The position numbers and the translations under genes are program-made. 64,000 nucleotides of DNA from an uncultured Pseudomonadales bacterium (GTDB lineage: Bacteria > Patescibacteriota > Microgenomatia > UBA1400 > PJMF01), in assembly GCA_964637295.1 (NCBI GenBank), contig CAZWWE010000001.1:252312-316311 (forward strand). Reading direction: 5' to 3'. The notes under the pieces were generated by a model. The model worked only from the letters and a program-made list of their open reading frames with translations. It did not search any database and was not told where the DNA came from. Shown here in pieces: positions 24,079 through 61,282 of the stretch. Each line of letters begins with the position of its first letter. Positions within the stretch are counted from its first letter, which is position 1.

Positions 24079-24079
24079 A

Positions 24080-25243: not shown

Positions 25244-25267
25244 GAGCTGTCAATAGTTTACTAAATT

Positions 25268-26122
25268 TTAAGCCTTGATTACAAGGGGCTCAGCAATTTG
25301 GCCAGTAAGCTGAATTTCAACTGGAGTAAAATTCAGTTGATCCTTTTCTACAACAATTTGATAAAGCCCATCAGCTAGAGGACGATCGGTTAAAAATTGT
25401 CCATTCAGATCACTTTTCAAAACGCGCAGAGTTTGTTGATTTTGATCTTTAATTTCAATAATTGCTTGAGCAATTTTTTGATTGTTTTGATCGAGAATAA
25501 GTCCGGCGATTTGATTGGGCAGTAATGGTTTTATAGTACTGTTTTCATCAGGGAGTTTAAGCTTGCGAACTCTAGTTTGTAGATTGGGCTTTTCTTGTTT
25601 AATTGGCTCAGCTTTAATCTGTTCTGTTTTGACCTCGACTTCAGCGAATTGATTGAGCACTGAGCTAATTTTTTCTTTTTCACTCAACTCAAATTGATCG
25701 AGGCTATTTTCTTCGGGAATACTTTTTAAATATTCAAAAATGCGCTGTTTACGCGCAGGATTTAAATTGATATCTGGTGCAAAAAAATCGTCTTGCGTAG
25801 AGCTAATTTTATAATTAAAAAAATCTGGAATTTTATTAGATTTTTTCCAAAAAAATTTAGTTGGTTTATAGATGTTTTTGAAAAAAGTTTTGATCCAATG
25901 ATCGAGAGGTCTTTCTTCAATCGGTACAAAAGCAATGGCCGCTCCCAAGCCAACGACAGAAAAAACTAACGGCCACTTGATGATCCCAATTAGATTGGTT
26001 TTATAGATAATAAAAGCTAAAACTGCGGCGATAGCTAGTTCAGCAAATTGCTTGAGAGTCATGCTTCCCACAAGATGAAACTTATAGTTGGTAATATCTT
26101 GTGGAATTGGATGCTGTTTCAT
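25268..26122 (-). CDS. VirB3/PrgI-like two-TM membrane protein with C-terminal beta-sandwich-like domain
   Basis: N-terminal two TMs (LAIAAVLAFIIY..., WPLVFSVVGLGAAIAFV) immediately upstream of the VirB4 unit. C-terminus GLYQIVVEKDQLNFTPVEIQL is carboxypeptidase-regulatory-like. Confidence 0.35.
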   Translation of the reverse strand: MKQHPIPQDITNYKFHLVGSMTLKQFAELAIAAVLAFIIYKTNLIGIIKWPLVFSVVGLGAAIAFVPIEERPLDHWIKTFFKNIYKPTKFFWKKSNKIPDFFNYKISSTQDDFFAPDINLNPARKQRIFEYLKSIPEENSLDQFELSEKEKISSVLNQFAEVEVKTEQIKAEPIKQEKPNLQTRVRKLKLPDENSTIKPLLPNQIAGLILDQNNQKIAQAIIEIKDQNQQTLRVLKSDLNGQFLTDRPLADGLYQIVVEKDQLNFTPVEIQLTGQIAEPLVIKA

Positions 26123-26208: not shown

Positions 26209-27192
26209 TTATTTTTGGGCAGCGCTGGCCACTGCTGGAGTGATAATTTTGGCCTCGATATTAATTCCGGCCGAATTAGTTAGTTTGGCGCTAAATTTGT
26301 AAAAAGGATAGGCAATTTTTAATTCACTGTCATAGCGATATTCGATTTCGACCGCATACAAATCGGCTTCGATAATCCAATTAAGATCGATGACGTTGGC
26401 AATTTTGCTTTGAGCATCAATAATAGAGCCAACGCCATTTTTGATATTTTTAACAGCTTGGTCAAGCGAAAGAGAAGAAATTTCTCTTGCTGGCTCAAAG
26501 ACTTGATAGCTATCTTTAAATACAATTTTTCTAACTTCATAATTATGGTCGATTTTGCAAAAAAATGGATAATTATTTTCATTTTCGTAAAAAACTGAGA
26601 AGCCGTTTAACTCGTAAGTGAAAGGAATTTGTAAATAAACAGCGTCTTTTGGATCAGTTTCTCTTTGTTCTAATGTGCCACCAAGATACAAAATGCTATT
26701 TTTTTGAGCTATTAAAGATAGATCGAGATTGTATTTTTTATAAAAATTGGCGCATTGAGAGATTGCTTCTTCAATAACAATGGGAACAAAAGCACTTTCA
26801 TTTTTTGAGCCAATGTCAAAACTCCATCTGTTTTCAAAAACATTTTTAATTAAAAAGTTTTCGTCTTTAATCCAATAATTTCCCATTTTTTCATCTTTTT
26901 CCAATTGATATTCTCTAATGATTTTGTTGGCCAACTCATCTTCTAAATTTAAAGTGGCTTTGGCTTGAAAAATTGTAAAAAATTCTGGCACAAAAATTTT
27001 TTGGCCAGAAAAATCAATTTTTTTGTAAGTAGTCTGAGTCTGATTGTAATTATTGTTAACGAAATTATTTTGAACGATGGTTTCTTTTTGGGGAGTGATT
27101 AAAATCAATATCGCAGAAATCAATAATGAAACCGAAGCAAAAATAATTAATAGCGGAATGATTTTGATTTCTTTTTTGTTTTTTTTATTCAT
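26209..27192 (-). CDS. Bitopic membrane protein (possible VirB8-like T4SS component)
   Basis: Single N-terminal TM IKIIPLLIIFASVSLLISAILILI followed by a ~290-aa ectodomain. Overlaps the upstream giant gene by 8 nt. Confidence 0.3.
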   Translation of the reverse strand: MNKKNKKEIKIIPLLIIFASVSLLISAILILITPQKETIVQNNFVNNNYNQTQTTYKKIDFSGQKIFVPEFFTIFQAKATLNLEDELANKIIREYQLEKDEKMGNYWIKDENFLIKNVFENRWSFDIGSKNESAFVPIVIEEAISQCANFYKKYNLDLSLIAQKNSILYLGGTLEQRETDPKDAVYLQIPFTYELNGFSVFYENENNYPFFCKIDHNYEVRKIVFKDSYQVFEPAREISSLSLDQAVKNIKNGVGSIIDAQSKIANVIDLNWIIEADLYAVEIEYRYDSELKIAYPFYKFSAKLTNSAGINIEAKIITPAVASAAQK

Positions 27193-30100
27193 AGCAGGTG
27201 GTTACTCCATCATTTAAAAGTGGTGGATAATTGCCTTTATTGGTTTCTGGTACTAAAGTTTCAATAATGGAAAAATTTCTTGGACTAGGATGATAAAAAA
27301 CACCGTTAAAATCTACTTCATAATGCAGATGAGGTCCGGTTGAATTACCCCGATTGCCCATGGGGCCAATCAAAAAGCCTTCTTCAGTGTTCATGCAGGA
27401 TTCTGCCTGTGACAGCTGATCATTTGGCGCCTCAAAATGAGCAAATAATAATTTGCGACTAGTGCCGCTGTCGTCAAACGTCAAAACATAATAACAACCA
27501 TAGCCGCTGTCGCTACAACCCTTAAAGCAAAGTTCACCAGCGTAGGGCACATAAACATTGGGAAATTTGCCGCCGCCGCCGATATCATATGCATCAGCAT
27601 AGCCTTTAGAAAGAGGAGATCGATGAGAAGCATCTGCGTCTGGAGTTCCGACGCCAAAAGGTAATTGAGAAATGCCTCCGGTCGTTGGCCAACAACCGGC
27701 ACCAGCACTGCAGTTGCCAAGACAGACTCTGGCGGCGGTTTTGAGATTGTCTTGACCAGAGATAAAATTATTTTGGTAATAAAAGTTAAGCTCGATGGTG
27801 TTAATGATGGCAGTGTGATTGTAATCTGAGCTTAGGTCGTCGAGGGTATAAGAAAAAGTCAAGTTTTCTCCGGCTGGAATAATAATAAAGTCTGTTTCTG
27901 CGGGACTGGGATTTGCCAGGGGATCATTGACGTTGGCTGGCACATAGCTTGGTTCTTGTGGTATTGAAGAACCAGGATCGTTGAGTGGCTTTTGATCGAG
28001 GGCTTGATTGGCTTTGATAATTTTTTTGAAGTAAGCAAAATCTAGATTTTTTTGTGTTGGTATGGCGGGTATGGGTTTGCCACTTTCTTCCCAACCTTTT
28101 TTGCTTTGTTTAAATTTGATTTGATCTGTAATGTTGTTTATTTGTAGCGAAAAATCTTCTTTGGGCTTAACGGTGACGGTGTATTCGATGGAGAGTGGAA
28201 AACCGGGATTTTCACATTTAGTGCCATTGTTTTCAGGATTGGTACAGCCCTTGACAATTTTGGCAGTTTTTTTCATTTCTGCATATTTGGAAGTTTTTTC
28301 AACAGATTTGTTAATTTCAGATTCATTGAAAGGAAAATCAGTTAAAAAAGCTGAATTGAGACTAGTTTGATAAATCAAAACCAAGGTGGCCGTGGTGCCA
28401 AAAGTAATTAGCACGGCGCGACCAGCAGTTTGCATGGCGGTAGAATAATGTTGGCTGAGCAAGCTTTTGGCGCCATGTGGCAGTTGGGATTCAATTTGTT
28501 GTTGAGCAGAGACGTTGCTGTGTAAAATTCCGCCACTGGCTCCTCCGGCTCCACCTAGCGATTTACCAGCGGCCCCCAACAATCCTCGACTGCCAAATAG
28601 TCCGTTTCTGAGTAAAAAATAACCAGGAGCTAATAGCAAAAGCCAAGGGAGCAAGGCAGAAAGAGCGGCTAAAATTAGTCCTAAAACTATTAGTGGCCAA
28701 TATTTTTTAATTAGCTCAAGAATTTTTTCCAAGCCCATCTCGATCAGCTGCTCTTTAATTTTTTTGATAATGGGCAGCGCTGTTTCAGCGGCGCGCAAGG
28801 CCTCGCCTAAACCACCGGCCGCATCAAGAGCTAAATAAAGTCCCTCACTCAAGGCTTTGCTGGCTAGTTTTTTACCTTTTTGTCCTAAGGCACTGTCGAG
28901 AAAAGCTGTGCCCTGGTAATTCTCTCCGGGTGCAAAAGCTCTTTGCACGTAGCCACTGTCATCTGCCATAAAAGCATCTGCTCCAAATTGTTCAGCCATC
29001 TGTAGCATGTAAAAGTCCATGGGATTGATTTGCGGCGCAATTTGTTTCTGAAATACTTCTAGGCTGTATTCTTGATATGTGACTCCTGGAGCATAATAAT
29101 CAAAAAAAACTTTGAGCGTGTTTTGCTGTTCTGCTTGAGAAAGTTTAGCAATCTCTGTTTCTAAATATTTTTTGATAAGTTCTTGTTGTTGTTCTTGAAA
29201 AGCTAGGAGCTCTCGATTGTTAGGGTCGGCAAGCTTTGCCAGGCCTTCGGTAATTTGTTTGCCTCCGTAGCTTAAATTGAGTGCACCCAAGCGGCGCAAG
29301 GCTGCTAATTTTTTTGGATCTTTTTTGATGGTTTCGAAAAGTTGTTCTGCTTGTTCTGGAGTATATTTTTCTAGGCCCAGTTCTCGACCAACTATATTGA
29401 TATAGATAGCTCTTTTGCGTTTCCAATAAAAAATGATCAAATTGGCCAATTCTTCGCTGTGAGCATCGAAATCTTGTCGATCTAGGCTGTTGCCAAAAAG
29501 ATTGACAAAGCGGCCATAATCGAAATTTTTGGCATCTGGAATTAGAAATTCTGGCGGCAAGCCCTGTTGAATAAAAACTTCAACGAGCGGGCGAACATTT
29601 TCGATCACCAAGCTCATTCTGGCTCGATCTTGAGAGTTGGTGATGCTAATCAATTTTTCGAGGAAGGCTTTTTCTAAATAATTTTCATCTTGAATGATAT
29701 TGAGCTCAGATTCGATAATTTTGGCGAAATTTGAGTTATCTTGCTGAGTTGTTAATAGTTCTTCAGCTTTTTGACTAGTTAAAACATTTTCCTCAGTAGT
29801 GTCATTTTTGGCTCTGGAGCCAAGCTGGTCTGCTGTGAGTGGCTCTTTTTCGTTGGCACGAATTTGCACTTGACCGCCCTGAGCAATATTTCTGACGGCA
29901 GTGTTGAGTAAATTTAAACCATGAACATCCATTAATAAGTTTAAGGCTGTTTGGTTGCTAAAATTAATTCTTTCTGCTGGCTCACTGATTAATTTATCCA
30001 GCGAAAATTGCCCGCTAAGCAACAGGTTTTCTACTTGTGCAAAAGCTCGATCCATTAATTGCTGTCTTATTGCTAATGGAAGCTGGTCAAAAGTAATCAC

Positions 30101-30925
30101 TGTGCCTGGCGGTAAGCCAATTTTTGCCAGCGAAGCCGCGTTGAAATATCTACTTAGAGCTTGATTGATGGTGATAATTGAGAGCGACTGTAAATAGAGC
30201 TTGGCTTGAGGATCGAGCTCAGAGATTTTGAGGGGAGGGGCTTGTTTAGGTGACTCATCAGGAGGCCTTGGCTCTGTTTCTTGACCAGCGGCTTCTGCGC
30301 CTTCTTCATTTTTTGTAGTACTTGGCCAGGCTATTCCAGCCCCAGAGCCTTGCTTTTGTTCCAAATCTTCTTCTACAGAACTTGTTTCTGTCGATTGAAT
30401 CGCTTCAACACTCAAGCTGGGTCGAAGAATTGCATAAATTAATCGAATTCTTTCAATAATTTGCCGTGAAGATTCATAGTCTTCAATTTTTTGTAGCTCT
30501 TCGAGGCTAATTTTTTCTTCTGCTGGAGAAACGCCAATTAAGCTAAAAGTATTTTCCAATCGGTCAAGTTCCACTCTTTGAGCTGAGTTAATAGAAATCT
30601 TATTACTGGTCAAGGAAGTGCGGATTTGTTCAACGAAATTTACTAGGTCCGAGAGAAACAAAAAGGGCTCTTTGCCGTCAACGGGAACAGTGCCGTTCTC
30701 GATATCATTGGCAGTGCTCAAGTCAAATTCGCCACCATAACTAAATCCTTCAATGGCAAAATTTCCCTTAACTTTTTTGTGGCCGGCCGCCTCATTGTAG
30801 AAATCACTAATCCAATCAATGCTTTTTTGAAGCACTTCACTGATTTGATCAGCACTAAGACTATCAACTCCAGCCAATTTTTTCAGCTTAATGCGAGTGT
30901 TTTGATTGATTTTCTCGTCCGCCAT
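27185..30925 (-). CDS. Giant T4SS-associated membrane protein with C-terminal M23 peptidoglycan endopeptidase domain
   Basis: 1246 aa. ~740-aa N-terminal region, then TM YWPLIVLGLILAALSALLPWLLLLAPGYFLL. Gly-rich GLLGAAGKSLGGAGGASGG. C-terminal M23 signature GNRGNSTGPHLHYEV. Confidence 0.6.
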   Translation of the reverse strand: MADEKINQNTRIKLKKLAGVDSLSADQISEVLQKSIDWISDFYNEAAGHKKVKGNFAIEGFSYGGEFDLSTANDIENGTVPVDGKEPFLFLSDLVNFVEQIRTSLTSNKISINSAQRVELDRLENTFSLIGVSPAEEKISLEELQKIEDYESSRQIIERIRLIYAILRPSLSVEAIQSTETSSVEEDLEQKQGSGAGIAWPSTTKNEEGAEAAGQETEPRPPDESPKQAPPLKISELDPQAKLYLQSLSIITINQALSRYFNAASLAKIGLPPGTVITFDQLPLAIRQQLMDRAFAQVENLLLSGQFSLDKLISEPAERINFSNQTALNLLMDVHGLNLLNTAVRNIAQGGQVQIRANEKEPLTADQLGSRAKNDTTEENVLTSQKAEELLTTQQDNSNFAKIIESELNIIQDENYLEKAFLEKLISITNSQDRARMSLVIENVRPLVEVFIQQGLPPEFLIPDAKNFDYGRFVNLFGNSLDRQDFDAHSEELANLIIFYWKRKRAIYINIVGRELGLEKYTPEQAEQLFETIKKDPKKLAALRRLGALNLSYGGKQITEGLAKLADPNNRELLAFQEQQQELIKKYLETEIAKLSQAEQQNTLKVFFDYYAPGVTYQEYSLEVFQKQIAPQINPMDFYMLQMAEQFGADAFMADDSGYVQRAFAPGENYQGTAFLDSALGQKGKKLASKALSEGLYLALDAAGGLGEALRAAETALPIIKKIKEQLIEMGLEKILELIKKYWPLIVLGLILAALSALLPWLLLLAPGYFLLRNGLFGSRGLLGAAGKSLGGAGGASGGILHSNVSAQQQIESQLPHGAKSLLSQHYSTAMQTAGRAVLITFGTTATLVLIYQTSLNSAFLTDFPFNESEINKSVEKTSKYAEMKKTAKIVKGCTNPENNGTKCENPGFPLSIEYTVTVKPKEDFSLQINNITDQIKFKQSKKGWEESGKPIPAIPTQKNLDFAYFKKIIKANQALDQKPLNDPGSSIPQEPSYVPANVNDPLANPSPAETDFIIIPAGENLTFSYTLDDLSSDYNHTAIINTIELNFYYQNNFISGQDNLKTAARVCLGNCSAGAGCWPTTGGISQLPFGVGTPDADASHRSPLSKGYADAYDIGGGGKFPNVYVPYAGELCFKGCSDSGYGCYYVLTFDDSGTSRKLLFAHFEAPNDQLSQAESCMNTEEGFLIGPMGNRGNSTGPHLHYEVDFNGVFYHPSPRNFSIIETLVPETNKGNYPPLLNDGVTTCYE

Positions 30926-33245: not shown

Positions 33246-34910
33246 TTAAACTTGAAAATCAACTTCATCTTCAGTAGTGGCAGTTTCCCTAGCCTTTCTT
33301 TCTTCAGCAGCCCTAATTTTTTCTTTATTATAAGCTTGTGAAACCAGAGCTTTTTCCCAATTATTTGGATCAAATGCTTTTCCTTCAAGTAGCGTATCCA
33401 AGGCTCTAGCTTCTTCATTTCCTTTAGCAATCTGTATGCCCATGTTGGTTTTAACAGATTTGCCAATCGTTGGAATTGCAACATCCAATCCCTGACCTTT
33501 GGATGATCTAACTCCCTCAAACACGCCTTTTCCAAGACCGTATGCTCCTCTAGCAATTGGAGGTGTGTAAACAGTTGCGTTCTTCATATTCTTCAATGCC
33601 GATCCCGCCAATTGTCCAAATACGCCTTCTTCCACACCCATGGCCTTTTTGACTTGTTGCATGATTTCTGGAATGACCAAGAGAATGCCGATGCCTAGAA
33701 TGACGGGAATGATGTTGGCTTGACCTTGACCAACTAAAAATGGAGGCATGAAGCCACCGCCAAAAGCGCCATCCAGCGCGTCACCGGTGCCTTGCAGGCT
33801 TCTAATCGGAGCAGTTAGCATTCTTTGTACCAACACACAGAGTAAAACCACTGGCCACAGCACCAAGTTGCCAGCTAAATTTTTGAGCCATTTGCCGAAA
33901 GTATCTTTACCAGGAAAAGCGCCAAGCATCAAGATAATTGGCGAAAAGATAATTTGGATTAACACGGCCACATAAGTTTTGACCAGTTCAAAAAAAATTT
34001 TGAAAGTGGCAAAAAGAATAGCGATGCCGATAATGACCGTACCTAGTAAACTAGATAGCCAGGCGATTGCTTCTCCAACAAAAGAAATATTAAGCGCATC
34101 TTCCATAAATTGTTCAATGGCATTTTGCGTGGCACTGCCAGTGTCAGTGCCCTTAAACATTAGACCAATTAAGCCAAAAACATTGCGAGTGATAATGTCG
34201 GGCCCTTCGGTAAAATAGCCGGCTAAAACATACATCGCCACGTACATGATATCAATCATCAATCCGGCGATGGCATAGGAAAAAGTAACGGCGAGCATGG
34301 CGATCACCACGTTGGGAATAGCTTGCTGAGCCGTAATGGCAGCTTGACCAACCTTGGTGCGAAACATGATCATGAAACCAATAATCAGAAAAATAACCAC
34401 AAAAAAAAGATAAGCTAAATTGCGAAAAGATTTCCAAGTTTCTAGAATTGGATCAAGGGCGGAAAAACCTAAACCCTGGGCCTGCGCTTCTGGAATAATT
34501 TTGGCAGATTTCATCAAGTCAGCAACATAAGAGCGCGTGCTAGCGGGTGGAGTATACAAAGCTACGATGCCTTGATTTACTGAACCAATTAAACCCCCGC
34601 CCAAGCTTTTTTCAAGAGCAATCTTATCTGCACCAGTTATGCCTGCAAGCTTGGCTACTGTTTCTCCTCCATACACACTGCCATTAATAAAATTAAAACT
34701 ATTAGACCAAGTTGAAGAAACATTTTTTTCTTGAGCGACACCTTCTCCAAGAATTGCGTTGGTATAACTATTTGTAGCTTCTTCTATGCGAAAAATAGAG
34801 GCAATCCAATCAGAAACAAAATTCGCTTTTGCAGGTTTAATTGATATAAAAAAACACGAAAAAATACACAAAATAATTAATGATAAGCGAAAGTCTTTTA
34901 CTTGTGTCAT
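33246..34910 (-). CDS. Polytopic membrane protein, VirB6/TrbL-like
   Basis: Signal peptide plus at least six TMs (LAYLFFVVIFLIIGFMIMF, AIAGLMIDIMYVAMYVLAGYF, VIIGIAILFATFKIFFELV, LIQIIFSPIILMLGAF, LVLWPVVLLCVLV, IIPVILGIGILLVI) and a hydrophilic C-terminal tail. Lies within the T4SS cluster. Confidence 0.4.
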   Translation of the reverse strand: MTQVKDFRLSLIILCIFSCFFISIKPAKANFVSDWIASIFRIEEATNSYTNAILGEGVAQEKNVSSTWSNSFNFINGSVYGGETVAKLAGITGADKIALEKSLGGGLIGSVNQGIVALYTPPASTRSYVADLMKSAKIIPEAQAQGLGFSALDPILETWKSFRNLAYLFFVVIFLIIGFMIMFRTKVGQAAITAQQAIPNVVIAMLAVTFSYAIAGLMIDIMYVAMYVLAGYFTEGPDIITRNVFGLIGLMFKGTDTGSATQNAIEQFMEDALNISFVGEAIAWLSSLLGTVIIGIAILFATFKIFFELVKTYVAVLIQIIFSPIILMLGAFPGKDTFGKWLKNLAGNLVLWPVVLLCVLVQRMLTAPIRSLQGTGDALDGAFGGGFMPPFLVGQGQANIIPVILGIGILLVIPEIMQQVKKAMGVEEGVFGQLAGSALKNMKNATVYTPPIARGAYGLGKGVFEGVRSSKGQGLDVAIPTIGKSVKTNMGIQIAKGNEEARALDTLLEGKAFDPNNWEKALVSQAYNKEKIRAAEERKARETATTEDEVDFQV

Positions 34911-35826: not shown

Positions 35827-38736
35827 CTATAGCGAGTTCATGGCATTGACCAAAATGGCCATAGTAATCGAGCCCGGTCTGTCATAACGAGGATATTGAC
35901 TACCGTCACTAAAATTTTGACAAACGTTCGAGCCAGCGTAACAAAATTTTTTAGCATTTTCGATCAACCAATTTTTCTTTTCATCACTAAAATTCCAAAT
36001 ACTTTGTTTTTGGTCTAAATCAGCTCTCAGTTTAGCAATTACACTGGCAGTGGGACTGACGCTACAATTAAATTCTACATAATCAAGACAAAAAACTAGA
36101 TCCATGTCAGCATGGCGTTCATCAATGTAAGCAAGTGGGTGGGGATGATCTTCACTAGTAAATTGTGGTGGGCATTTGCCGCCATTTAGCCAGCGAGTTG
36201 ACTTGGCACAATTTTGATTACCCAAACCATTGTAGGCACCAATGGCTGCCACCAAAGTTTCGTAGTCAATATTGTTTTTATCGAAACCATTGGTAAATTT
36301 CTCAATTAAGTGTTCCATGGCCAGCTTAGCATCTTCTTTCAGTGAGCCGCCGTGCAAGTTCCCACCGTCAAAAAGTGACTGATCAGCGTTTGAACCACCT
36401 TCAGTCCAGTGGATACCGGCCGCAATTTCGCAAGGAATGCCAGTCATTTTTTCTGCATATTCATAAGCCTCGATGACTTCAGGAGTTAATCTGGGGGCAA
36501 TTTCCGCAGTGAAAATATCTTTGGCGAATTGCGGAATACCTGCAACATCTGGCATGTTTTTAATATTTTTGAACGCTTCGCCGCTACAGGCACTAGCAGA
36601 ATTTTTGCCACGGGGTTTACCACTGCAACGACCCAAGAACATGTCTTCCACTCTCTGACAAGAAGCGATGTAATCATAGGTTTGCTCGAAGCTGGCTCTC
36701 AAGGTTTGTTGAATTTTGCGCAACATGAAACCCAATCCAAAATCTGGCAATAGAATTTCTTTTTCTCCCTCATCTAAGTTCACTCCAAAATCGTAATTAG
36801 TACAAACTTGTACAATTTTTGTTGAAGGCACACCATTGGCATTTGTTTCTATAATTTCCTCATCGTGACATTCGTCGGCTAGACTAATAGAGTCACTGGC
36901 TTTGATGCCGATGTCTGCTCCTTTGAAAGTGTAATACTTGGGAATAACTCCTTTTTTGTTTTTCATGTCTTCAATGACGTTATTGCGTACCGTGTCAAAA
37001 AAAATTTCTTCATTCCAGAAAATCCCCAAAGCTTTATTAACATCTTTAATGGTTTCTCCAAGAGGAATGACTAAATAAGCGTTAACAATCATGGGTTCCT
37101 CTAATTTGGGTGGATCACTATTAATGGTCAATTGCCATTGAAAAAGATTGGTGTCTGCTGATTTTAATTTATCGACAATAAGTTGATTGACTGGACTTTG
37201 GTATTGATCTTTTTTAATATCCTTGGAGGCAGGCGTAAACAAGTCGCCTGCTTTTTCCCAATTCAACTCTTCTTGATTAAAAATTTCTTCGATGCCAGCG
37301 CTGCCACTCGCACTGTTTGTGGTAGTATTTTCAGTGCCCAACAAATTGCCAGCTAGCGTAGTTTCTTCAACAATTCTCAAAGTTGTGTTGGTGCAATTAG
37401 GAGCGCTACCGTTGATCATGTCGATTAAGACATTGCGCAAAGCATTGTCATCACTTCTTTGGCATTGAGGATAACTATCCGGACATTTAATAATGGGACT
37501 GCCCAAGTAGGGTGCACCTTTGGCTAATTCATAAATTTCCTTTCTTTTATTTTCTTGATCTTTATGATCTTTGGTATTTTGGGCTTTGACTTGAATAGCC
37601 ATCTTAGTTAATTCTAGGGTATCAACATTGCCGGTTGCCAAAGATTTGTTGGTGCCAAAGTCTGGGATTTTAAAAGCTACGATGATGGGCGCATGTACTT
37701 CTTCGTCAATTTGCGGATTGGCTTGTAAAAAATAAAAAGTGTCATTAGCTGCGCTTTTACCTTTATTTTGTTGAGGCACTAAGACTAAAAAAGCTAGACG
37801 ATAAAGAGAATCTAAATCAATTGGCAAGCGAGCGACTGCTGCTCTTAAACTTGCCAACTGATCAAGGCTGATACTTGGTGCTTCGTTTTCTTCCTGATCT
37901 TGCTTGGATGCAGAAAACTGATCGATGGTCAAATCAGCACAAACTTTTTTGTACAATTCTTCATTTTTTAGATTTGGTCTAGCTTGAGCAACCCAATCCA
38001 TTAGAATTTGATTATCAAAATTGACGTCAACGATGTGCTCATCGACCTTCAATTCTTGTTGACTCATGATTGAGCGACTGGCGCCTTGTTCATTAACCGC
38101 AATTTGAAAAGTATATGTTTTATTTAAAGAACAAGGCTCACCAACAATTTCTTTGCAAATTTTAATAGCAGAGAGAGTATTTTGAATTTTGGCCAAACAC
38201 TGATCGTAACTAGAGAGCAATCTTTGACTTACGCCAGCAGCATTGAGCATGTATTCGTTACCAATTTGTTGATAATTAGCTCCAAACATACCTTCAAAAG
38301 AACTATTTTTCAAAGTTTCTGTTTTGGTTTCCATGCCTCGCAAAAGTGGGATGCGGGCTTTGGACAGGTCAACCAGATAAGGATCATTGCCTCCAAAAAT
38401 AGTGGGATTAAATCCTTTGTAAAAACTTTCTTGCGGAGGAGTACCGCTGCTAAAAAACTTGTCAATTTCTCCCCAAAGAGTTTTGTTAATTACCCACTGC
38501 GCCCCGCCGCAATGTGCCTCATAACCCTGATCTTTAATCATGTTATTTAACAAGTCTTCGTAGAACAAACCAGCTTTGGCTTGTGGCAAAAACATGGGCA
38601 GCAGCGTGTAAGTGGCACTTTCGCTAGCCACAGACGCTTGAGTATTTTGTGCCTCAACTGGTTTGGCTTTAAGCAAAAACAATTGGCAAAACAAAAAAAA
38701 GCAGAGTAAATTTATCTTGAAAAATCGATTAAACAC
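35827..38736 (-). CDS. Large secreted protein (969 aa); possible divergent lysozyme-like domain near C-terminus
   Basis: Signal peptide MFNRFFKINLLCFFLFCQLFLLKAKPVEA. C-terminal segment HWTEGGSN...AAIGAYNGLGN is reminiscent of an SLT/lysozyme-like E...AYNxG pattern. This is a weak resemblance. Confidence 0.3.
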   Translation of the reverse strand: MFNRFFKINLLCFFLFCQLFLLKAKPVEAQNTQASVASESATYTLLPMFLPQAKAGLFYEDLLNNMIKDQGYEAHCGGAQWVINKTLWGEIDKFFSSGTPPQESFYKGFNPTIFGGNDPYLVDLSKARIPLLRGMETKTETLKNSSFEGMFGANYQQIGNEYMLNAAGVSQRLLSSYDQCLAKIQNTLSAIKICKEIVGEPCSLNKTYTFQIAVNEQGASRSIMSQQELKVDEHIVDVNFDNQILMDWVAQARPNLKNEELYKKVCADLTIDQFSASKQDQEENEAPSISLDQLASLRAAVARLPIDLDSLYRLAFLVLVPQQNKGKSAANDTFYFLQANPQIDEEVHAPIIVAFKIPDFGTNKSLATGNVDTLELTKMAIQVKAQNTKDHKDQENKRKEIYELAKGAPYLGSPIIKCPDSYPQCQRSDDNALRNVLIDMINGSAPNCTNTTLRIVEETTLAGNLLGTENTTTNSASGSAGIEEIFNQEELNWEKAGDLFTPASKDIKKDQYQSPVNQLIVDKLKSADTNLFQWQLTINSDPPKLEEPMIVNAYLVIPLGETIKDVNKALGIFWNEEIFFDTVRNNVIEDMKNKKGVIPKYYTFKGADIGIKASDSISLADECHDEEIIETNANGVPSTKIVQVCTNYDFGVNLDEGEKEILLPDFGLGFMLRKIQQTLRASFEQTYDYIASCQRVEDMFLGRCSGKPRGKNSASACSGEAFKNIKNMPDVAGIPQFAKDIFTAEIAPRLTPEVIEAYEYAEKMTGIPCEIAAGIHWTEGGSNADQSLFDGGNLHGGSLKEDAKLAMEHLIEKFTNGFDKNNIDYETLVAAIGAYNGLGNQNCAKSTRWLNGGKCPPQFTSEDHPHPLAYIDERHADMDLVFCLDYVEFNCSVSPTASVIAKLRADLDQKQSIWNFSDEKKNWLIENAKKFCYAGSNVCQNFSDGSQYPRYDRPGSITMAILVNAMNSL

Positions 38737-38763: not shown

Positions 38764-39657
38764 CTAGGAAAGAATGCGAATACCAAAAATAATTTCCAAG
38801 AGTTGAGCGATCCAGTAGGCAGCAAATAAAATAATAAAACCAATGATGGCTGAGGTAATTTTTTGCTTCCCTTCGTCTAATGATTTGGAGTTATTAGCTC
38901 CAGATAACATTTGAAAACCTCCAAGCAACATGACGACGAATAAAATAATACCTGCGATGGGAAAAATGAAAAACTGCAGTGCTCGAGAAATAATTTTTCC
39001 AGGATTTGACAAATCTACGCTACTACCACCGATTTTAAAGGGATTGAGGCTTTCTAAGGTTGCCGCGCTAACTTCAACGTCATTAATTCCTACATCAGTA
39101 TTCTGACATTGACCATCTCGGTACCAGCCACAGCAACGAGTGTTACCAGTACTGCGATTGGGAATTGCCTCTTGATTAGAGCACACACACTTTTTGGCAT
39201 TTTGAGCATCGGGATCATATTCAGTGCCACAATAAACCTCGTTGACCTGAGGGGGAGCGCTGAGACATTGAGTTTTTTCTGGATTTAGCCAGCCGCAGCA
39301 GACTCTGTTGACCACATAATTATAGGACTGCCATTGTCCTCCTGGACAATCGCAAACCCCTCCCTGTGGGACGCTGGCTCTCATTCTGCTTTCACCACAG
39401 GCATAAATATTTGGATCCTTATTGGCGTAGCACTGACCTTCGATGGAAGAATAAGAGCCGCAGCAGTAATATATTTCACTAAGGACATTGCCGATAAAAT
39501 CTGGTTTATTATTAACATTACTGCAATTGCACATATTACTAACATCTTCTCCAAGTCGAGCTCTGAAAGTTTCACCGCATTGATATGCCTGGCTAGTATT
39601 AGTGAAAATTAAACAGAAAAAAACAGAAATAAATAGAGTTTTTAGTATTTTTTTCAT
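38764..39657 (-). CDS. Cys-rich secreted ectodomain fused to C-terminal VirB2-like pilin hairpin (paralog 9)
   Basis: Start at the internal ATG 39657 (signal peptide MKKILKTLFISVFFCLIFTNTSQA), 1 nt after the upstream gene's stop. CCGW/CxC-rich ectodomain. C-terminal IILFVVMLLGGFQMLSGANNSKSLDEGKQKITSAIIGFIILFAAYWIAQLL. Confidence 0.55.
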   Translation of the reverse strand: MKKILKTLFISVFFCLIFTNTSQAYQCGETFRARLGEDVSNMCNCSNVNNKPDFIGNVLSEIYYCCGSYSSIEGQCYANKDPNIYACGESRMRASVPQGGVCDCPGGQWQSYNYVVNRVCCGWLNPEKTQCLSAPPQVNEVYCGTEYDPDAQNAKKCVCSNQEAIPNRSTGNTRCCGWYRDGQCQNTDVGINDVEVSAATLESLNPFKIGGSSVDLSNPGKIISRALQFFIFPIAGIILFVVMLLGGFQMLSGANNSKSLDEGKQKITSAIIGFIILFAAYWIAQLLEIIFGIRILS

Positions 39658-39658
39658 C

Positions 39659-40519
39659 TTATTCTCCAAATCCTGGTATGCGTAAAATTGATACACCAAT
39701 AAATTGTAAGATAGTGACTGAAAAAATGACAAATAAAAGGCCAATAATTGCCGAAGTAATAATTTCTTTTGCCTCTTTGGTTTTATTTGGATCGCCTTGA
39801 GAAACTGATAGCATGAAAGAACCCACCAAAATCATAATTAGAACGATGCCGCCACCGGCTGTCAGGCCAATGGTCACGATGGTTGTAATAACACTTTCTG
39901 GATCACTAGGAATACAACCTACAGCTGTCCAGACGCCGCCATTTTGAAAACAAGCCTGACAAGCTTCGAATTGGCTGGTGCCTTCTTTGATTTGTTGTTT
40001 GCAAAGATCATAATTGGCAACTGCGTCAGTTTTTGTATTACATTGATTTTCCTCATTGCCGCATTGCAAAGCTGCTTGCGGAGAAGCAATGTAAATTTTT
40101 TGATCTGTAGTGGTGAGAGTGGGATATAAAATAACTGTTAGTTTATAAGAGCAATTAGGTTCAATATTTTTTCCTGCAATCACAATATCAACCGCGCCAT
40201 TTTTTACATCAAAAAAAGAATTATACATATCAGTAAATCCATTTTTGCAAGCTAAAGTTGTGCCGTCTAAATAAACTTTAATAGCTTTTCCATCAACAAT
40301 TTTGCCATCCGCATAAGCGATGTCGGTTAATTTCACATGCACATCTGTTCCAGCCTGGACACAGCCACTTAAAAAATTGCAATTTTGTCCATCTCTTTCT
40401 TGATAGACTTCCGTTGTCCCAATTCTGGCAGTCCCAGCCGCCAACACTTCTTTCACGTTGAGTGAAAAAAGTGAGCTAATCAATAAAAACACTAGAGCTA
40501 TTTTTCTCATTTTCGTCAC
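39659..40519 (-). CDS. Cys-rich secreted ectodomain fused to C-terminal VirB2-like pilin hairpin (paralog 8)
   Basis: Signal peptide MTKMRKIALVFLLISSLFSLNVKEVLA. Cysteine-rich ectodomain. C-terminal IVLIMILVGSFMLSVSQGDPNKTKEAKEIITSAIIGLLFVIFSVTILQFI. Confidence 0.55.
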   Translation of the reverse strand: MTKMRKIALVFLLISSLFSLNVKEVLAAGTARIGTTEVYQERDGQNCNFLSGCVQAGTDVHVKLTDIAYADGKIVDGKAIKVYLDGTTLACKNGFTDMYNSFFDVKNGAVDIVIAGKNIEPNCSYKLTVILYPTLTTTDQKIYIASPQAALQCGNEENQCNTKTDAVANYDLCKQQIKEGTSQFEACQACFQNGGVWTAVGCIPSDPESVITTIVTIGLTAGGGIVLIMILVGSFMLSVSQGDPNKTKEAKEIITSAIIGLLFVIFSVTILQFIGVSILRIPGFGE

Positions 40520-50257: not shown

Positions 50258-52486
50258 TTATAAATTCCTCTTCTTAGCGTATCTTTCACGACTATTGCGA
50301 ATCACTTTATCGCGATTTTGGTTGCTACTTTTAGCCAAGGGCAAAGTATAAGCAGGGAAGGGGCGACTGAGCACATTGTCGATGGAGATTTTGTTAATGA
50401 TTTGGTATTTATCCAAATTAACTAAGTCATCTTGAGTGTATAAATCACCATACTCAGCTTGAAAATAGGTAGCGTCACCAGCCCCCATGACAAAACTCAT
50501 GATGTTGCCACAGTTGCCAAAAATAGCTTGGCGCACTTCTTCTGGAATTTGATCAATATATTGATTGGCTAGAGTCAGATTAAGGCGATATTTACGGGCT
50601 TCAGAAAGAATTTTGATGAAAGCATCAGTTGCAAAATTTTGAAATTCATCGACGTAAAGATAAAAGTCGCGGCGTTTTTCTTCTGGAGTATTAACTCTAG
50701 CCATGGCGGCTAACTGAATTTTGGTGATCATCATCGCGCCAAGAAGAGTAGCGTTGTCTTCACCAAGCCGACCCTGAGATAAATTGACCAATAGAATTTT
50801 GCCTTGACTCATTAAGTCCTCAATACTAAAAGAAGATTGAGTGGTGTTGACGACATTACGGACAATTGGCGAAGAAACAAACTGGCCCACTTTATTAAGA
50901 ATAGAGGCGATGGATTCAGTGCGTTGACGCTCTTGCATCTTATTGTATTCATTAATCCAGAAATTTTTTAAGATCGGATCATCAAGCTTTTCGACGATAT
51001 TGTCGCGAAATTTCTTATTAGTCAATAGCTCGAGAATATCAGATAATTTAGCCTCTTTGCTTTTAAGTAGAGTTAATAAACAATTGCGTAAAATGTATTC
51101 AAGTCGAGGGCCCCAAGAGTAGCTATAAAGTTTTTGAAAAACTGAAATGATACCCGAAGCAATTAACTCACGATGAACAACATTTTCACCTTCAAAAAGA
51201 TTGATTTGCACGGTGCGTTCTTGATCAGCTGGGTCAAAGTAAATGACGTCATTAATGCGATGTTTGGGAATGTAATCAAGTAGGGTTTCAACTAAGTCGC
51301 CATGAGGATCGATGACGCACATGCCCTCGTTATGTTTGAGATCATTAATCGCCATGTTAGCGAGAAGAGTAGATTTACCGGTGCCAGTTTTGCCAATCAC
51401 ATAAAGATGGCGGCGACGGTCATTACGCAACAGACCATATTTGGTGTTGCGATTTTTATAAATGGTTTCAGCAATGACGTTAATGTTTTGGCGAATTTCT
51501 TCTGGCGTGTCTTGACCAACAATCGGCAAGTTTTCTGGTGCTTCGCCAAGCAATTTTTTGCCCCAAGTGATGTTGGGAATGTTGCTAAGTTTTTTACCAG
51601 GCAAATGAAAGAGAGTGGCGATTTCTTCTAGGCTTAAAATTAAACTGGGAGAAGCCTTGAAGCTTCGCTTTAGCATAGTTTTCAGAAAGGCTTTCTTAGC
51701 GAAATATCGTTTTTGCAATTGCAGAGCATTGCCTTCGCTTTGAGAAATAGCCTGATAAGCCGTGGCAATATTTTCCAGGATCAATTTGCTTTTTTGTGCT
51801 TGCTCGCTAAAAACTGCTATTTTGAAAGCAGCGCGCAAAGATCTTTGATTTAATTTTTGTTCAATTAGAGCTTTTTGCGGATGGAGAGAGAGGGCTTCTT
51901 GGGAGAGTGAAGCTTGTTGAGTAAAGGAAACTTCATTATCTAAGATTAATTGCAATAAAATTACGTCGTCGTCTTCATTTTTAGATAAAGTTGATAAAAG
52001 AGTAGCGAGTGGATCAAGCTCATTAAAGTCATGAAAAGTTTTGAGAGGTAAATAACTTTTGTTTTTAAGCTTTAAGCTCGCCAAACATGGCTTGATTGTA
52101 GTTTGGAGTCGATCAAGCAAAAGATCAGCTGGATCAAGCTGTAATTCGCTTAACACTGCTGCTGGATAACTAGCATGAAAAGCTCCCTTAAAATATTCAA
52201 GCAAACGCTCTGGCACACAAGCTAAAAAATGTAAGCGTTGTTTTTCTACCCAAATTTCAAAACTGATCGCTTCGGCTCGATTTAATAATTGATCCACAAA
52301 ATTGTTTTTTAAGTCTGGCAGAGTGGAGAGAAGTTGTACCGCCGCTTCTGCGGTTTCTTGACTATCTTTACTAGTTTTAATCTCGAGCAAGACATGATTT
52401 TTTAGCACAGCCCTAGTATAGCAAATCGCCTTCAGGCTGTCAGTTTGGCTGTCAGCGTGATGAAAAAGCTTTAACTTTATTAGCAA
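50258..52486 (-). CDS. VirD4/TrwB-like (AAA_10/TraG-D type) ATPase lacking N-terminal TMs
   Basis: Walker A HLYVIGKTGTGKSTLLANMAINDL and Walker B-like YLYVDEFQNFAT. 742 aa. No TM segments at the N-terminus. Confidence 0.5.
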   Translation of the reverse strand: MLIKLKLFHHADSQTDSLKAICYTRAVLKNHVLLEIKTSKDSQETAEAAVQLLSTLPDLKNNFVDQLLNRAEAISFEIWVEKQRLHFLACVPERLLEYFKGAFHASYPAAVLSELQLDPADLLLDRLQTTIKPCLASLKLKNKSYLPLKTFHDFNELDPLATLLSTLSKNEDDDVILLQLILDNEVSFTQQASLSQEALSLHPQKALIEQKLNQRSLRAAFKIAVFSEQAQKSKLILENIATAYQAISQSEGNALQLQKRYFAKKAFLKTMLKRSFKASPSLILSLEEIATLFHLPGKKLSNIPNITWGKKLLGEAPENLPIVGQDTPEEIRQNINVIAETIYKNRNTKYGLLRNDRRRHLYVIGKTGTGKSTLLANMAINDLKHNEGMCVIDPHGDLVETLLDYIPKHRINDVIYFDPADQERTVQINLFEGENVVHRELIASGIISVFQKLYSYSWGPRLEYILRNCLLTLLKSKEAKLSDILELLTNKKFRDNIVEKLDDPILKNFWINEYNKMQERQRTESIASILNKVGQFVSSPIVRNVVNTTQSSFSIEDLMSQGKILLVNLSQGRLGEDNATLLGAMMITKIQLAAMARVNTPEEKRRDFYLYVDEFQNFATDAFIKILSEARKYRLNLTLANQYIDQIPEEVRQAIFGNCGNIMSFVMGAGDATYFQAEYGDLYTQDDLVNLDKYQIINKISIDNVLSRPFPAYTLPLAKSSNQNRDKVIRNSRERYAKKRNL

Positions 52487-59886: not shown

Positions 59887-59916
59887 ATGTTAAGATTAAA
59901 GGAAATTGAAATAAAA

Positions 59917-60660: not shown

Positions 60661-60665
60661 AAATT

Positions 60666-61262: not shown

Positions 61263-61282
61263 TTTAGGAACCAAAAATATAT

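What the first reader, a model, noticed from the sequence alone, without database searches (positions are those of the whole stretch)
38764..40519. Two cysteine-rich secreted ectodomains fused to a C-terminal VirB2-like pilin hairpin
Two adjacent minus-strand genes (286 and 326 aa, 1-nt spacing) have signal peptides, ectodomains with about 14 and about 25 cysteines (CCGW / CxC / CxxxC patterns) and the same hairpin module as the 4.7-8.1 kb array (…GDPNKTKEAKEIITSAIIGLLFVIF… / …GANNSKSLDEGKQKITSAIIGFIILFAAYW…). The seventh array member (7351-8118) shows the inverse arrangement: hairpin first, then a Thr/Pro linker and two Cys-rich ~40-aa repeats. Fusion of a pilin-like membrane anchor to disulfide-rich extracellular modules is a plausible pilus-tip or surface-displayed adhesin or toxin scaffold. 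I do not recognise it as a described family.
Basis: seen in the sequence. Interest (0 to 1): 0.8.

Follow-up and report, generated by a model that had tools for sequence, protein, structure and literature searches.

The report
Secretion-system pilins carrying cysteine-rich ectodomains
Two neighbouring genes of an ultra-small (CPR/Patescibacteria) bacterium attach disulfide-rich outer domains to the small two-helix hairpin that normally makes up a whole type IV secretion pilin, which suggests that this poorly understood, apparently essential machine displays swappable surface-contact modules.

Summary
Gene A (39659-40519, minus strand, 283/286 aa, 10 Cys) and gene B (38764-39657, minus strand, 297 aa rather than 326, 19 Cys) lie 1 nt apart. 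Each has a signal-peptide-like N-terminus, a Cys-rich ectodomain and a C-terminal hairpin that passes Pfam PF18895 (T4SS_pilin). The hairpins match a profile of the 4.7-8.1 kb pilin array at E 3e-10 and 5e-17.

A's ectodomain is predicted as an Ig-like beta-sandwich plus a 6-Cys helical neck. B's is three copies of a six-Cys module (CG..CxC..CCGW..C). That module has no Pfam or PDB relative. It occurs in only 12 of 1.84 billion representative proteins, and every complete one carries a pilin hairpin. Its copy number runs from 0 to 5.

The pair heads a conserved T4SS-like locus in all 19 related genomes. Hairpins are 71-94% identical in the 12 closest genomes, ectodomains 28-55%. Modules swap between hairpin types, and related hairpins carry up to about 930 residues, including a homologue of the neighbouring 969-aa protein.

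Best reading: modular minor pilins or surface-contact subunits of the Patescibacteria T4SS. This is a new variant of a known kind. An adhesin role is inferred, and a toxin role is unsupported.

The parts
39659..40519 (-). Gene A: an A-type modular pilin of 286 aa (283 aa from ATG 40510) with 10 Cys. It is the first gene of the operon.
   Evidence: ORF and translation. PF18895 29.6 bits against GA 26.6. 21 orthologues, all with the same architecture.
40439..40519 (-). A: Sec-type signal peptide, residues 1-27 (…NVKEVLA|AG).
   Evidence: Hydrophobic segment 4-28. AF2 helix 2-16. The cleavage site is inferred from the AxA-like motif conserved in alignment A2.
40070..40438 (-). A: predicted Ig-like beta-sandwich ectodomain, about residues 28-150, with 4 conserved Cys.
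39905..40069 (-). A: Cys-rich helical neck, about residues 151-205 (LQC..QC..C..ACQACF..VWTAVGCIPSDPES). Its six Cys are invariant or nearly so, and it is the signature of the A-type.
   Evidence: Invariant columns in A2. The same motif precedes the hairpin in P0037, P0043, P0044, L028 and L070.
39662..39904 (-). A: two-helix pilin hairpin, residues 206-286, with loop SQGDPNKTKEAKE and tail IPGFGE.
   Evidence: Pfam hit at 217-274. Array HMM E 3.1e-10. AF2 helices 204-238 and 244-275 in 283-aa numbering. 82-94% identical in the 12 closest genomes.
38764..39657 (-). Gene B: a B-type modular pilin of 297 aa with 19 Cys. It starts 1 nt after A's stop codon.
   Evidence: PF18895 30.6 bits. 11 orthologues.
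39586..39657 (-). B: signal peptide, residues 1-24 (…TNTSQA|YQ).
   Evidence: Hydrophobic segment 1-19. AF2 helix 2-19. Cleavage is inferred.
39430..39579 (-). B: CCGW module, copy 1 (residues 27-76; CG-x14-CxC-x19-CCG-x9-C).
   Evidence: Regex and alignment of 63 repeat instances. Repeat HMM built without the window's sequences, domain E 6e-9.
39265..39399 (-). B: CCGW module, copy 2 (residues 87-131).
   Evidence: domain E 4e-9. All six Cys are invariant in A1.
39106..39231 (-). B: CCGW module, copy 3 (residues 143-184).
   Evidence: domain E 2e-10. All six Cys are invariant in A1.
39004..39105 (-). B: conserved linker, residues 185-218 (DVGINDVEV..TLESLNP…DLSNPGKIISRAL). It is predicted to be flexible.
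   Evidence: pLDDT below 50 for residues 190-225, yet the sequence is nearly invariant. It is retained in B-type pilins that have no repeats.
38767..39003 (-). B: two-helix pilin hairpin, residues 219-297, with loop GANNSKSLDEGKQK.
   Evidence: Pfam hit at 225-287. Array HMM E 4.6e-17. AF2 helices 219-254 and 260-296.
35827..38736 (-). p969: a secreted 969-aa protein with 22 Cys and no family hit. It is always the next gene after B and is probably co-transcribed.
   Evidence: Synteny holds in 19 of 19 genomes. No terminator-like site lies between B and p969. In L070 a homologue carries an A-type pilin hairpin at its C-terminus.
33246..34910 (-). A 554-aa polytopic membrane protein and candidate VirB6/PrgH analogue. 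The assignment is inferred from topology and position only.
   Evidence: About 7-9 hydrophobic segments. No Pfam or NCBIfam hit. Conserved position.
27185..30925 (-). A 1246-aa protein with a C-terminal M23 peptidase domain. It is the candidate cell-wall hydrolase of the machine.
   Evidence: PF01551 at E 2.2e-5, below GA. Conserved in synteny.
21889..26122 (-). The ATPase block: VirB4-like ATPase (21889-24228), TrsD-like gene resembling the VirB4 N-domain (24080-25243), and PrgI/VirB3-like protein (25268-26122). It lies directly upstream of dnaA.
   Evidence: TraG P-loop 93 bits, CagE_TrbE_VirB 22.4 bits against GA 21, PrgI 30.3 bits against GA 27. TrsD and VirB4 NCBIfam hits below cut-off.
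4683..8118 (+). An array of seven small PF18895 pilin genes. The seventh (7351-8118) has a C-terminal Thr/Pro linker and two Cys-rich repeats.
50258..52486 (-). A VirD4/TrwB-type coupling-protein-like ATPase.
   Evidence: TrwB_AAD_bind 51.6 bits against GA 20.5, and TraG-D_C.

Best explanation
A and B are modular VirB2-like pilins of the chromosomal T4SS-like machine of a Microgenomates-type Patescibacterium.

Proposed mechanism (inferred): Each protein is exported by Sec. Its ectodomain is oxidised outside the cell, and the protein is held by a two-helix hairpin of the same family as the nine-paralogue pilin set. The hairpin docks the protein into the T4SS or its pilus. By analogy with solved VirB2/TraA pili (my own knowledge), both termini face outward and the loop faces the cytoplasm or lumen, so an N-terminal ectodomain would point away from the cell. 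A would display an Ig-like sandwich on a disulfide-stapled neck. B would display three six-Cys CCGW modules on a flexible linker. I read them as low-copy subunits (tip, initiating or decorating) that make the contact with the partner or host surface, probably together with the co-transcribed secreted protein p969. The seven small array pilins would supply the bulk structure.

Shown: the architecture, hairpin homology, operon position, the conservation asymmetry, repeat copy-number variation, and module swapping.

Inferred: topology, disulfides, pilus incorporation, position in the filament, and the adhesive function.
For: 1. Hairpin homology. PF18895 scores above GA for both. The array-only HMM hits at E 3e-10 and 5e-17 with no other hit in the window.

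2. Genomic context. The order SpoIID(-)|A|B|p969|p265(-)|polytopic protein|M23 is kept in 19 of 19 species-level genomes and in an 841-kb contig. VirB4, PrgI, a TrsD-like gene and a T4CP lie in the same 48 kb around dnaA.

3. Conservation asymmetry across the 12 closest genomes with complete genes (L004-L017). A hairpin is 82-94% identical and B linker plus hairpin 71-84%. The ectodomains are 28-55%, p969 is 49-67%, and the polytopic protein is 61-75% in the loci with a near-full-length match. So the anchor is the most constrained part of the locus and the displayed part the least.

4. The CCGW module keeps an invariant Cys/Gly framework while its loops vary in length. Copy number is 0, 1, 2, 3, 4 or 5, and Cys counts are 6, 12, 18 or 24 in the intact repeat-bearing members with 1-4 copies.

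5. Exclusivity. The module profile hits only 12 representatives among 1.84 billion proteins. Eleven end in a pilin hairpin and the twelfth is a fragment.

6. Modularity. CCGW repeats sit on A-type hairpins in P0037, P0043 and P0044, and on a third hairpin type in P0038. Hairpin-bearing ORFs at loci retrieved with the A-type profile have 26 to 936 residues ahead of the hairpin. A p969 homologue ends in an A-type hairpin in L070.

7. Cys counts are even in 64 of 83 long hairpin carriers. A CPR-enriched MdbA/VKOR oxidation system is reported (10.1101/335083).

8. A's ectodomain resembles Ig-like domains of the kind found in intimin, invasin and FN3 adhesion proteins.

9. Ordinary family members are 105-146 aa. 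Ectodomains of 170 to more than 900 aa fit poorly on every subunit of a tightly packed shaft, which favours a low-copy role. This last point is my own steric reasoning, not a computed result.

10. The pilin genes of the T4SS cluster are essential in the one Patescibacterium tested, and no PrgB-type adhesin was found in the phylum (PMC10633639, PMC12102498).
Against: - No pilus built from PF18895 proteins has ever been seen, so polymerisation is an assumption.
- Sequence links to canonical VirB2 are weak. PF04956 scores 19.2 bits against GA 27.9 for B and gives no hit for A. A profile of the window's hairpins finds no solved pilin in the PDB.
- The AF2 models are only moderately confident, with mean pLDDT 70.5 and 66.6 and the hairpin of A at 50-66.
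- Low ectodomain conservation could reflect relaxed constraint rather than adaptation to partners. No dN/dS test was possible at this divergence.
- Array pilin a6 is also about 90% conserved between genomes. High hairpin conservation therefore does not single out A and B as special.
Confidence: 0.55

Rival explanations
1. Shaft decoration. A and/or B are major or abundant pilus subunits, so the filament is sheathed along its length by disulfide-rich domains. The sheath would act as a protective or spacing coat rather than as a specific adhesin.
For: Both termini of VirB2-type pilins lie on the pilus exterior (my own knowledge), so N-terminal domains could coat a filament. B has a linker of about 35 residues predicted to be flexible, which could let domains splay radially. 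The genes come first in the operon.
Against: Seven small pilins with no ectodomain are present and are conserved orthologue by orthologue. They are the more natural bulk subunits. Related hairpins carry 300 to more than 900 residues, which is hard to fit on every subunit. The ectodomains are the fastest-evolving part of the locus, which is unusual for a purely structural coat.
Confidence: 0.15
2. Envelope-spanning scaffold. The hairpins are membrane anchors that dock into the inner-membrane T4SS complex, and no pilus forms. Together with p969, the ectodomains build the cell-wall-crossing stalk or cap of a monoderm channel. This would be functionally analogous to the missing VirB7/9/10 core or to the PrgC- and PrgL-type wall-spanning parts.
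For: A, B and p969 are strictly co-inherited next to the polytopic membrane protein and the M23 hydrolase. A p969 homologue is fused to the same hairpin in L070. The hairpins are very highly conserved. Monoderm T4SSs normally have no pilus (PMC12102498, PMC12857230).
Against: A fixed structural stalk should have conserved ectodomains. Here they are 28-55% identical, the repeat number changes from 0 to 5, and modules hop between hairpin types. The hairpins are clear paralogues of the array pilins.
Confidence: 0.2
3. Released toxin or signal. The hairpin acts only as an export and retention device. The Cys-rich modules are cleaved off and act as secreted knottin-like toxins, bacteriocins or signals.
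For: Small six-Cys modules with hypervariable loops resemble toxin scaffolds in general terms. A conserved acidic linker (DVGINDVEV) could be a processing site, though this is speculation.
Against: No similarity to any toxin, bacteriocin or defence family was found in Pfam, NCBIfam, PHROGs or the PDB. The module is never found without a hairpin. No immunity-like or maturation genes lie nearby. The linker next to the hairpin is nearly invariant, as expected for a retained junction.
Confidence: 0.05

Closest known systems
VirB2-like pilins (Pfam PF18895) and pilin arrays of Patescibacteria T4SS (Wang et al. 2023, PMC10633639; Quinonero-Coronel et al. 2025, PMC12102498)
   Same: The hairpin family is the same (PF18895 above GA). 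The chromosomal T4SS-like locus near dnaA has the same VirB4, TrsD, PrgI and T4CP components and a separate multi-gene pilin array.
   Different: Described pilins are small. The best 120 relatives are 105-146 aa, and the S. epibionticum pilins have hairpins ending at about residues 100-180. A and B add ectodomains of about 180 and 195 residues. They are encoded at the head of the machinery operon rather than in the array. I found no mention of pilin-ectodomain fusions in those papers, and PMC12102498 states that no adhesins were detected.
Canonical conjugative pilins VirB2 / TraA / TrbC (PF04956)
   Same: Both have a signal peptide followed by a two-helix hydrophobic hairpin with a short polar loop, encoded with VirB4-type machinery. 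The expected topology puts both termini outside (own knowledge).
   Different: PF04956 is below threshold for B (19.2 against 27.9 bits) and absent for A. No sequence match to solved pilins was found. Canonical pilins have no globular domains, and some are cyclised head to tail, which seems hard to reconcile with a large N-terminal domain (my own reasoning). Here the host is a monoderm.
VirB5 / CagL-type pilus-tip adhesins of Gram-negative T4SS
   Same: The proposed role is the same: a low-copy, surface-contact subunit associated with the T4SS pilus.
   Different: The proteins are unrelated. VirB5 is a soluble helical protein with no membrane hairpin (own knowledge). A is predicted as a beta-sandwich plus hairpin, and B as small Cys-rich beta modules plus hairpin. 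The likeness is functional, not membership.
Modular type IV pilins, that is, type IV pilins with grafted functional modules such as Streptococcus sanguinis PilB and PilC (own knowledge, not checked in the paper library)
   Same: The design principle is the same: a conserved polymerisation module fused to a variable, exposed functional module, used in small numbers for adhesion.
   Different: The filament superfamily is different. Type IV pilins have an N-terminal methylated helix and carry the module at the C-terminus. The window has separate genes of that type at 59887-61753. Here the anchor is a VirB2-type hairpin and the module is N-terminal, or C-terminal in array member 7.
PrgB-type surface adhesins of Gram-positive conjugation systems
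   Same: Both are surface adhesion functions encoded with a monoderm T4SS. A contains an Ig-like domain, as many such adhesins do.
   Different: There is no LPXTG sorting signal, and the proteins are anchored by a pilin hairpin instead of to the cell wall (sequence). No sequence similarity was found.

Membership tests
Pfam PF18895 T4SS_pilin (Patescibacteria-type VirB2-like pilin) | The HMM score reaches the curated gathering threshold of 26.6 bits. | tested here: met
   A scores 29.6 bits (residues 217-274) and B scores 30.6 bits (residues 225-287).
Pfam PF18895 T4SS_pilin (Patescibacteria-type VirB2-like pilin) | Two hydrophobic helices joined by a short polar, Lys-rich loop. | tested here: met
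   Hydropathy segments at 209-243 and 250-283 in A, and at 221-255 and 266-296 in B. AF2 helical hairpins. Alignment with the seven array hairpins.
Pfam PF18895 T4SS_pilin (Patescibacteria-type VirB2-like pilin) | Encoded with VirB4-type T4SS genes. | tested here: met
   The genes lie in the same strand block as the PrgI-like, TrsD-like and VirB4-like genes and the M23 hydrolase. The order is conserved in 19 of 19 genomes.
Pfam PF18895 T4SS_pilin (Patescibacteria-type VirB2-like pilin) | A small single-domain protein of about 100-150 aa. This is typical of the family but is not a formal criterion. | tested here: not met
   A is 283/286 aa and B is 297 aa. The best 120 hairpin relatives are 105-146 aa.
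TrbC/VirB2 conjugative pilins (PF04956) | The HMM score reaches the gathering threshold of 27.9 bits. | tested here: not met
   B scores 19.2 bits at E 0.0015, and A has no hit. A profile of the window's hairpins finds no solved pilin in the PDB.
TrbC/VirB2 conjugative pilins (PF04956) | Polymerises into an extracellular pilus with a lipid-lined lumen. | not testable with these tools
   This needs cryo-EM or cryo-ET. No PF18895 filament has been reported (PMC12857230 speaks only of a 'potential to elaborate conjugative pili').
VirB5-type tip adhesin | A soluble elongated helical fold with no membrane hairpin. | tested here: not met
   The predicted folds are a beta-sandwich or Cys-rich beta modules plus a C-terminal TM hairpin.
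Sortase- or PGF-CTERM-type anchored surface proteins | A C-terminal sorting signal, either LPXTG or PGF followed by a TM helix and a basic tail. | tested here: not met
   There is no LPXTG. The PGFGE of A follows the second helix at the very C-terminus instead of preceding a helix. No sorting-signal model was hit in NCBIfam.
Type IV (class III signal peptide) pilins | An N-terminal methylation motif (PF07963) and a single N-terminal helix. | tested here: not met
   A and B have no N_methyl hit. True type IV pilin genes lie elsewhere in the window, at 59887-61753.
CCGW six-cysteine module (proposed here; not a curated family) | The framework CG-x(6-30)-CxC-x(8-45)-CCG-x(4-22)-C, found N-terminal to a PF18895 hairpin. 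| tested here: met
   B has three copies, each at domain E 2e-10 to 6e-9 with an HMM that excludes the window's sequences. 63 instances occur in 26 of 27 relatives examined. Only 12 representatives among 1.84 billion proteins hit the profile, and every complete one is hairpin-linked.

The most novel reading that the evidence does not exclude
The A-type and B-type hairpins are general display anchors of the Patescibacteria T4SS. On this reading the machine, or its pilus, is primarily a host-recognition organelle. Its specificity would be set by swappable, disulfide-stabilised modules: CCGW repeats in 0-5 copies, Ig-like sandwiches, and ectodomains of up to about 930 residues including p969-type proteins. 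This would be a VirB2-superfamily counterpart of the modular type IV pilins. It would also explain why no PrgB- or VirB5-like adhesin has been found in the phylum.
Probability: 0.35. Interest if true: 0.8.

Novelty: new variant of a known kind. Interest (0 to 1): 0.62.

Why it matters
[quoted passage not shown] Canonical VirB2-type pilins are bare hairpins, and contact functions are delegated to other proteins. Finding the hairpin used repeatedly as a carrier for fast-evolving, disulfide-rich surface modules gives concrete candidates for the part of the machine that touches the partner cell. It also gives a sequence handle (A-type and B-type hairpins, CCGW module) for comparing host range across lineages.

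The finding also yields a small, autonomous six-Cys domain with no known relative. That domain is easy to express and probe.

Limits: everything beyond architecture and evolution is inference, and no member of this clade is in culture.

Tried and rejected
- Family searches of the ectodomains. Pfam at E up to 1, NCBIfam and PHROGs found nothing beyond the hairpin.
- PDB sequence profiles of both families found nothing.
- The afdb50 library was not available, so predicted-structure relatives were not searched.
- Fold search of A returned only generic Ig-like, MG and FN3 sandwiches. No specific family is claimed.
- A profile of the nine window hairpins against the PDB found no VirB2, TraA or TrwL hit. 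I therefore do not file A and B under PF04956.
- p969 has no Pfam, NCBIfam, PHROGs or PDB relative. A lysozyme-like C-terminus that I suspected from the sequence was not confirmed and is not claimed. The same applies to a glycosidase-like N-terminus in the distant p969 homologues of L026, L027 and L070, which had no Pfam hit.
- The CCGW module was tested in A, in array member 7 and in p969, and is absent from all three.
- The promoter and terminator scan was uninformative beyond the absence of a terminator between A, B and p969.
- Cluster look-ups gave no source names or accessions. The organism is assigned only through the titles of related genomes (Pacebacteria, Woesebacteria, Ca. Microgenomatus).
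- dN/dS was not attempted. The closest DNA in hand is about 53-55% identical in the ectodomains, so synonymous sites are saturated.
- The 326-aa start for B (TTG 39744) was rejected in favour of ATG 39657.
- A toxin reading and a sortase or PGF-CTERM anchor were considered and rejected (see rival explanations and membership tests).
Full report
**1. What is in the sequence**

The region 38764-40519 holds two co-oriented minus-strand genes.

- Gene A is 39659-40519. It is 286 aa from GTG 40519, or 283 aa from ATG 40510, which is the public gene model P0012.
- Gene B is 38764-39657 and 297 aa. It starts at an ATG preceded by GGAG, 1 nt after A's stop codon. Eight of the nine orthologues that keep an intact N-terminus begin MKK.
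- A has 10 cysteines and B has 19 (18 after the signal peptide), not about 14 and about 25.
- Both proteins begin with a typical basic-hydrophobic-AxA signal sequence. This is an inference, supported.
- Both end in two long hydrophobic helices joined by a short Lys-rich loop.

**2. The hairpin is a real, known module**

Both C-termini pass the gathering threshold of Pfam PF18895 (T4SS_pilin), at 29.6 and 30.6 bits against 26.6. Six of the seven genes of the 4683-8118 array also pass.

An HMM built only from the seven array hairpins finds B at E 4.6e-17 and A at 3.1e-10 among all 330 ORFs of 50 aa or more in the window. It finds nothing else. The similarity therefore survives proper statistics.

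Links to canonical VirB2 are much weaker. PF04956 scores 19.2 bits for B, below its threshold, and gives no hit for A. NCBIfam shows weak hits to a mycoplasma ICE pilin-like family. No solved pilin is found by sequence.

The repeats score 114 in local alignment against 25 +/- 5 for shuffles, and 0 of 1000 shuffles reach that score.

**3. The two ectodomains are different**

- sequence identity of 4-17%

B consists of three tandem copies of a 42-50-residue six-Cys module, CG-x-CxC-x-CCG(W)-x-C. A conserved but flexibly predicted linker follows. A repeat HMM built without the window's own sequences finds exactly three copies in B, at domain E 2e-10 to 6e-9. It finds none in A, in array member 7 or in the neighbouring 22-Cys protein. 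No Pfam, NCBIfam, PHROGs, PDB-sequence or PDB-fold relative was found for the module.

**4. Distribution**

- In 5.8 billion clustered proteins, the B ectodomain has 11 relatives and the A ectodomain has 21. Every B relative and 20 of the 21 A relatives are annotated with PF18895.
- A profile of the single CCGW module, scored against 1.84 billion representatives, gives only 12 hits at E <= 0.001. Eleven end in a pilin hairpin and one is a fragment.
- In species-representative genomes the family occurs in MAGs labelled Pacebacteria, Woesebacteria and Ca. Microgenomatus, and in one complete 853-kb genome. These belong to the CPR/Minisyncoccota.
- Cys counts are 6, 12, 18 or 24 in the intact members with one to four repeats. 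One relative has five repeats (32 Cys) and some B-type pilins have none.

**5. Genomic context**

The pair is the first transcription unit of a conserved block: SpoIID(-) | A | B | p969 | p265(-) | 554-aa polytopic membrane protein | (p719) | 1246-aa M23 protein. This order is found in all 19 genome loci and in an 841-kb metagenome contig.

In the window the same strand continues to a PrgI/VirB3-like gene, a TrsD-like gene and VirB4. These lie directly next to dnaA and dnaN. A T4CP-like ATPase lies at 50258-52486. No terminator-like site separates A, B and p969.

This matches the published picture of a chromosomal, origin-proximal, MPF-FATA-like T4SS with added VirB2-like pilins and pilin arrays in Patescibacteria (PMC12102498). 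That system is essential in Southlakia epibionticum (PMC10633639).

**6. Evolutionary pattern**

The table compares the window with the 12 closest genomes that have complete genes, L004-L017.

| Region | Identity |
|---|---|
| A hairpin | 82-94% |
| B linker plus hairpin | 71-84% |
| A ectodomain | 28-53% |
| B ectodomain | 30-55% |
| p969 | 49-67% |
| Polytopic protein | 61-75% (loci with a near-full-length match) |

In the more distant loci (L018-L024) the hairpins fall to 59-75% and the ectodomains are mostly unalignable. The anchor is the most constrained segment of the locus and the displayed part the least.

Within the CCGW module the Cys/Gly framework is invariant while the loops change in length and sequence.

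The modules are mobile:
- P0037, P0043 and P0044 carry CCGW repeats on an A-type hairpin, followed by a reduced B-type pilin and a p969-like gene.
- P0038 carries five repeats on a third hairpin type, 1 nt after an A-type pilin with a larger Ig-like ectodomain.

A metagenome scan with the A family returned 73 loci.
- ORFs bearing a pilin hairpin at those loci have 26 to 936 residues ahead of the hairpin, with a median of 185. Starts were taken at the first Met, so these are upper estimates.
- 53 of 71 loci have two or more adjacent hairpin genes.
- Cys counts are even in 64 of 83 long carriers.

In L070 a homologue of p969 (phmmer 8e-59) itself ends in an A-type hairpin that passes PF18895, at 29.0 bits. 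This fusion ties p969 to the same assembly.

By contrast, the 120 best relatives of the window's hairpins are all 105-146 aa. The pilins of the one experimentally studied system are also small.

**7. Mechanism**

Shown:
- the domain architecture and hairpin homology
- the position in the machinery operon
- a constrained anchor with a variable display part
- the six-Cys framework, copy-number variation and module exchange

Inferred:
- Sec export and disulfide formation outside the cell. A CPR-enriched MdbA/VKOR system has been reported (10.1101/335083).
- An N-out topology that points the ectodomain away from the cell, as in solved VirB2/TraA pili (own knowledge).
- Incorporation into the T4SS or its pilus through the hairpin.
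- A contact or adhesion role.

I favour a low-copy role (tip, initiating or decorating) for three reasons. Seven bare pilins are available for bulk structure. Each of those is itself conserved orthologue by orthologue. Related hairpins carry domains far too large for every subunit of a packed filament.

The rivals are shaft decoration, an envelope-spanning scaffold without a pilus, and released Cys-rich toxins. The first two cannot be excluded. The toxin idea has no positive evidence.

**8. Comparison and novelty**

A and B are members of PF18895 and work within a known system, the Patescibacteria T4SS with VirB2-like pilins. They fail the score threshold of canonical TrbC/VirB2. They are unrelated to VirB5, PrgB, sortase-anchored proteins and type IV pilins.

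Three things appear to be new:
- the use of the VirB2-type hairpin as a carrier for globular, disulfide-rich ectodomains
- the A/B pair as a conserved operon-leading unit
- the CCGW module itself

The two papers that catalogue these pilins do not mention such fusions, and one states that no adhesins were detected. The closest functional analogy is the modular type IV pilins (own knowledge). I rate this a new variant of a known kind, of moderate to high interest. The claims about function remain inferential.

Noticed in passing
L070 5015-8260 (metagenome contig Ga0209976_10000002); compare window 35827-38736: A homologue of the window's 969-aa secreted protein (phmmer 8e-59) ends in an A-type pilin hairpin that passes PF18895 at 29.0 bits. 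It is the third gene after an A-type and a B-type pilin. This Rosetta-stone-type fusion links p969 to the pilins.
   Followed up: partly
window 4683-8118, especially 6832-7236 (a6; the true start is probably MKSIKK at 6832): The seven array pilins are only about 20-40% identical to each other. Yet array member a6 is about 90% identical to its 133-136-aa orthologues in other genomes of the clade (P0045, P0065, P0067, P0077, P0086). Old paralogues that are each conserved argue for distinct fixed roles, and against the antigenic-variation idea raised in PMC12102498. Only one member was checked.
   Followed up: partly
window 7351-8118: Array member 7 carries a C-terminal Thr/Pro linker and two related Cys-rich repeats (C..T.TSGS..KC..YC.NGYH..S.G..CGP; score 114 against 25 +/- 5 for shuffles). 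They are unrelated to the CCGW module. The protein has no evident signal peptide. No homologue search was run for this domain.
   Followed up: partly
window 35827-38736: p969 is a 969-aa secreted protein with 22 Cys and no hit in Pfam, NCBIfam, PHROGs or PDB sequences. It is 49-67% identical across the clade and always follows gene B. Its function is unknown.
   Followed up: partly
window 4064-4630 (minus strand): An ECF-type sigma factor gene is divergently adjacent to the pilin array (Sigma70_r2 and r4_2). It is a possible dedicated regulator of the array.
   Followed up: no
window 21889-25243: The VirB4 function appears split. A 387-aa gene resembles the VirB4 N-terminal domain (TrsD), and it is followed by the ATPase gene. 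The listed TTG start of the ATPase ORF overlaps the TrsD-like gene by about 150 nt, so the real start is probably further downstream.
   Followed up: no
window 59887-61753: Three consecutive genes carry the type IV pilin N-methylation motif, and one also has a T2SS-G domain. The same 64 kb therefore encodes both filament systems.
   Followed up: no
L028 1894-4156 (ENA scaffold ANAN16-1…53974) and window 8144-8821: In a more distant lineage, an A-type pilin (372 aa) and a five-repeat CCG pilin (382 aa, 32 Cys) lie 1 nt apart directly next to uppS. That is the position occupied by the end of the small-pilin array in the window. The pair and the array may once have formed one cluster.
   Followed up: no
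L012 (CP011212.1): The complete 853-kb genome carrying a four-repeat B orthologue and the full syntenic locus is titled 'candidate division TM6 bacterium GW2011_GWF2_28_16'. Its gene content here looks like the Microgenomates-type relatives, so the label may be wrong.
   Followed up: no
window 439-1530 and 49842-50180: A Fic/DOC family protein and an HI1420-type antitoxin-like gene sit among housekeeping genes. The latter lies next to the T4CP-like gene.
   Followed up: no
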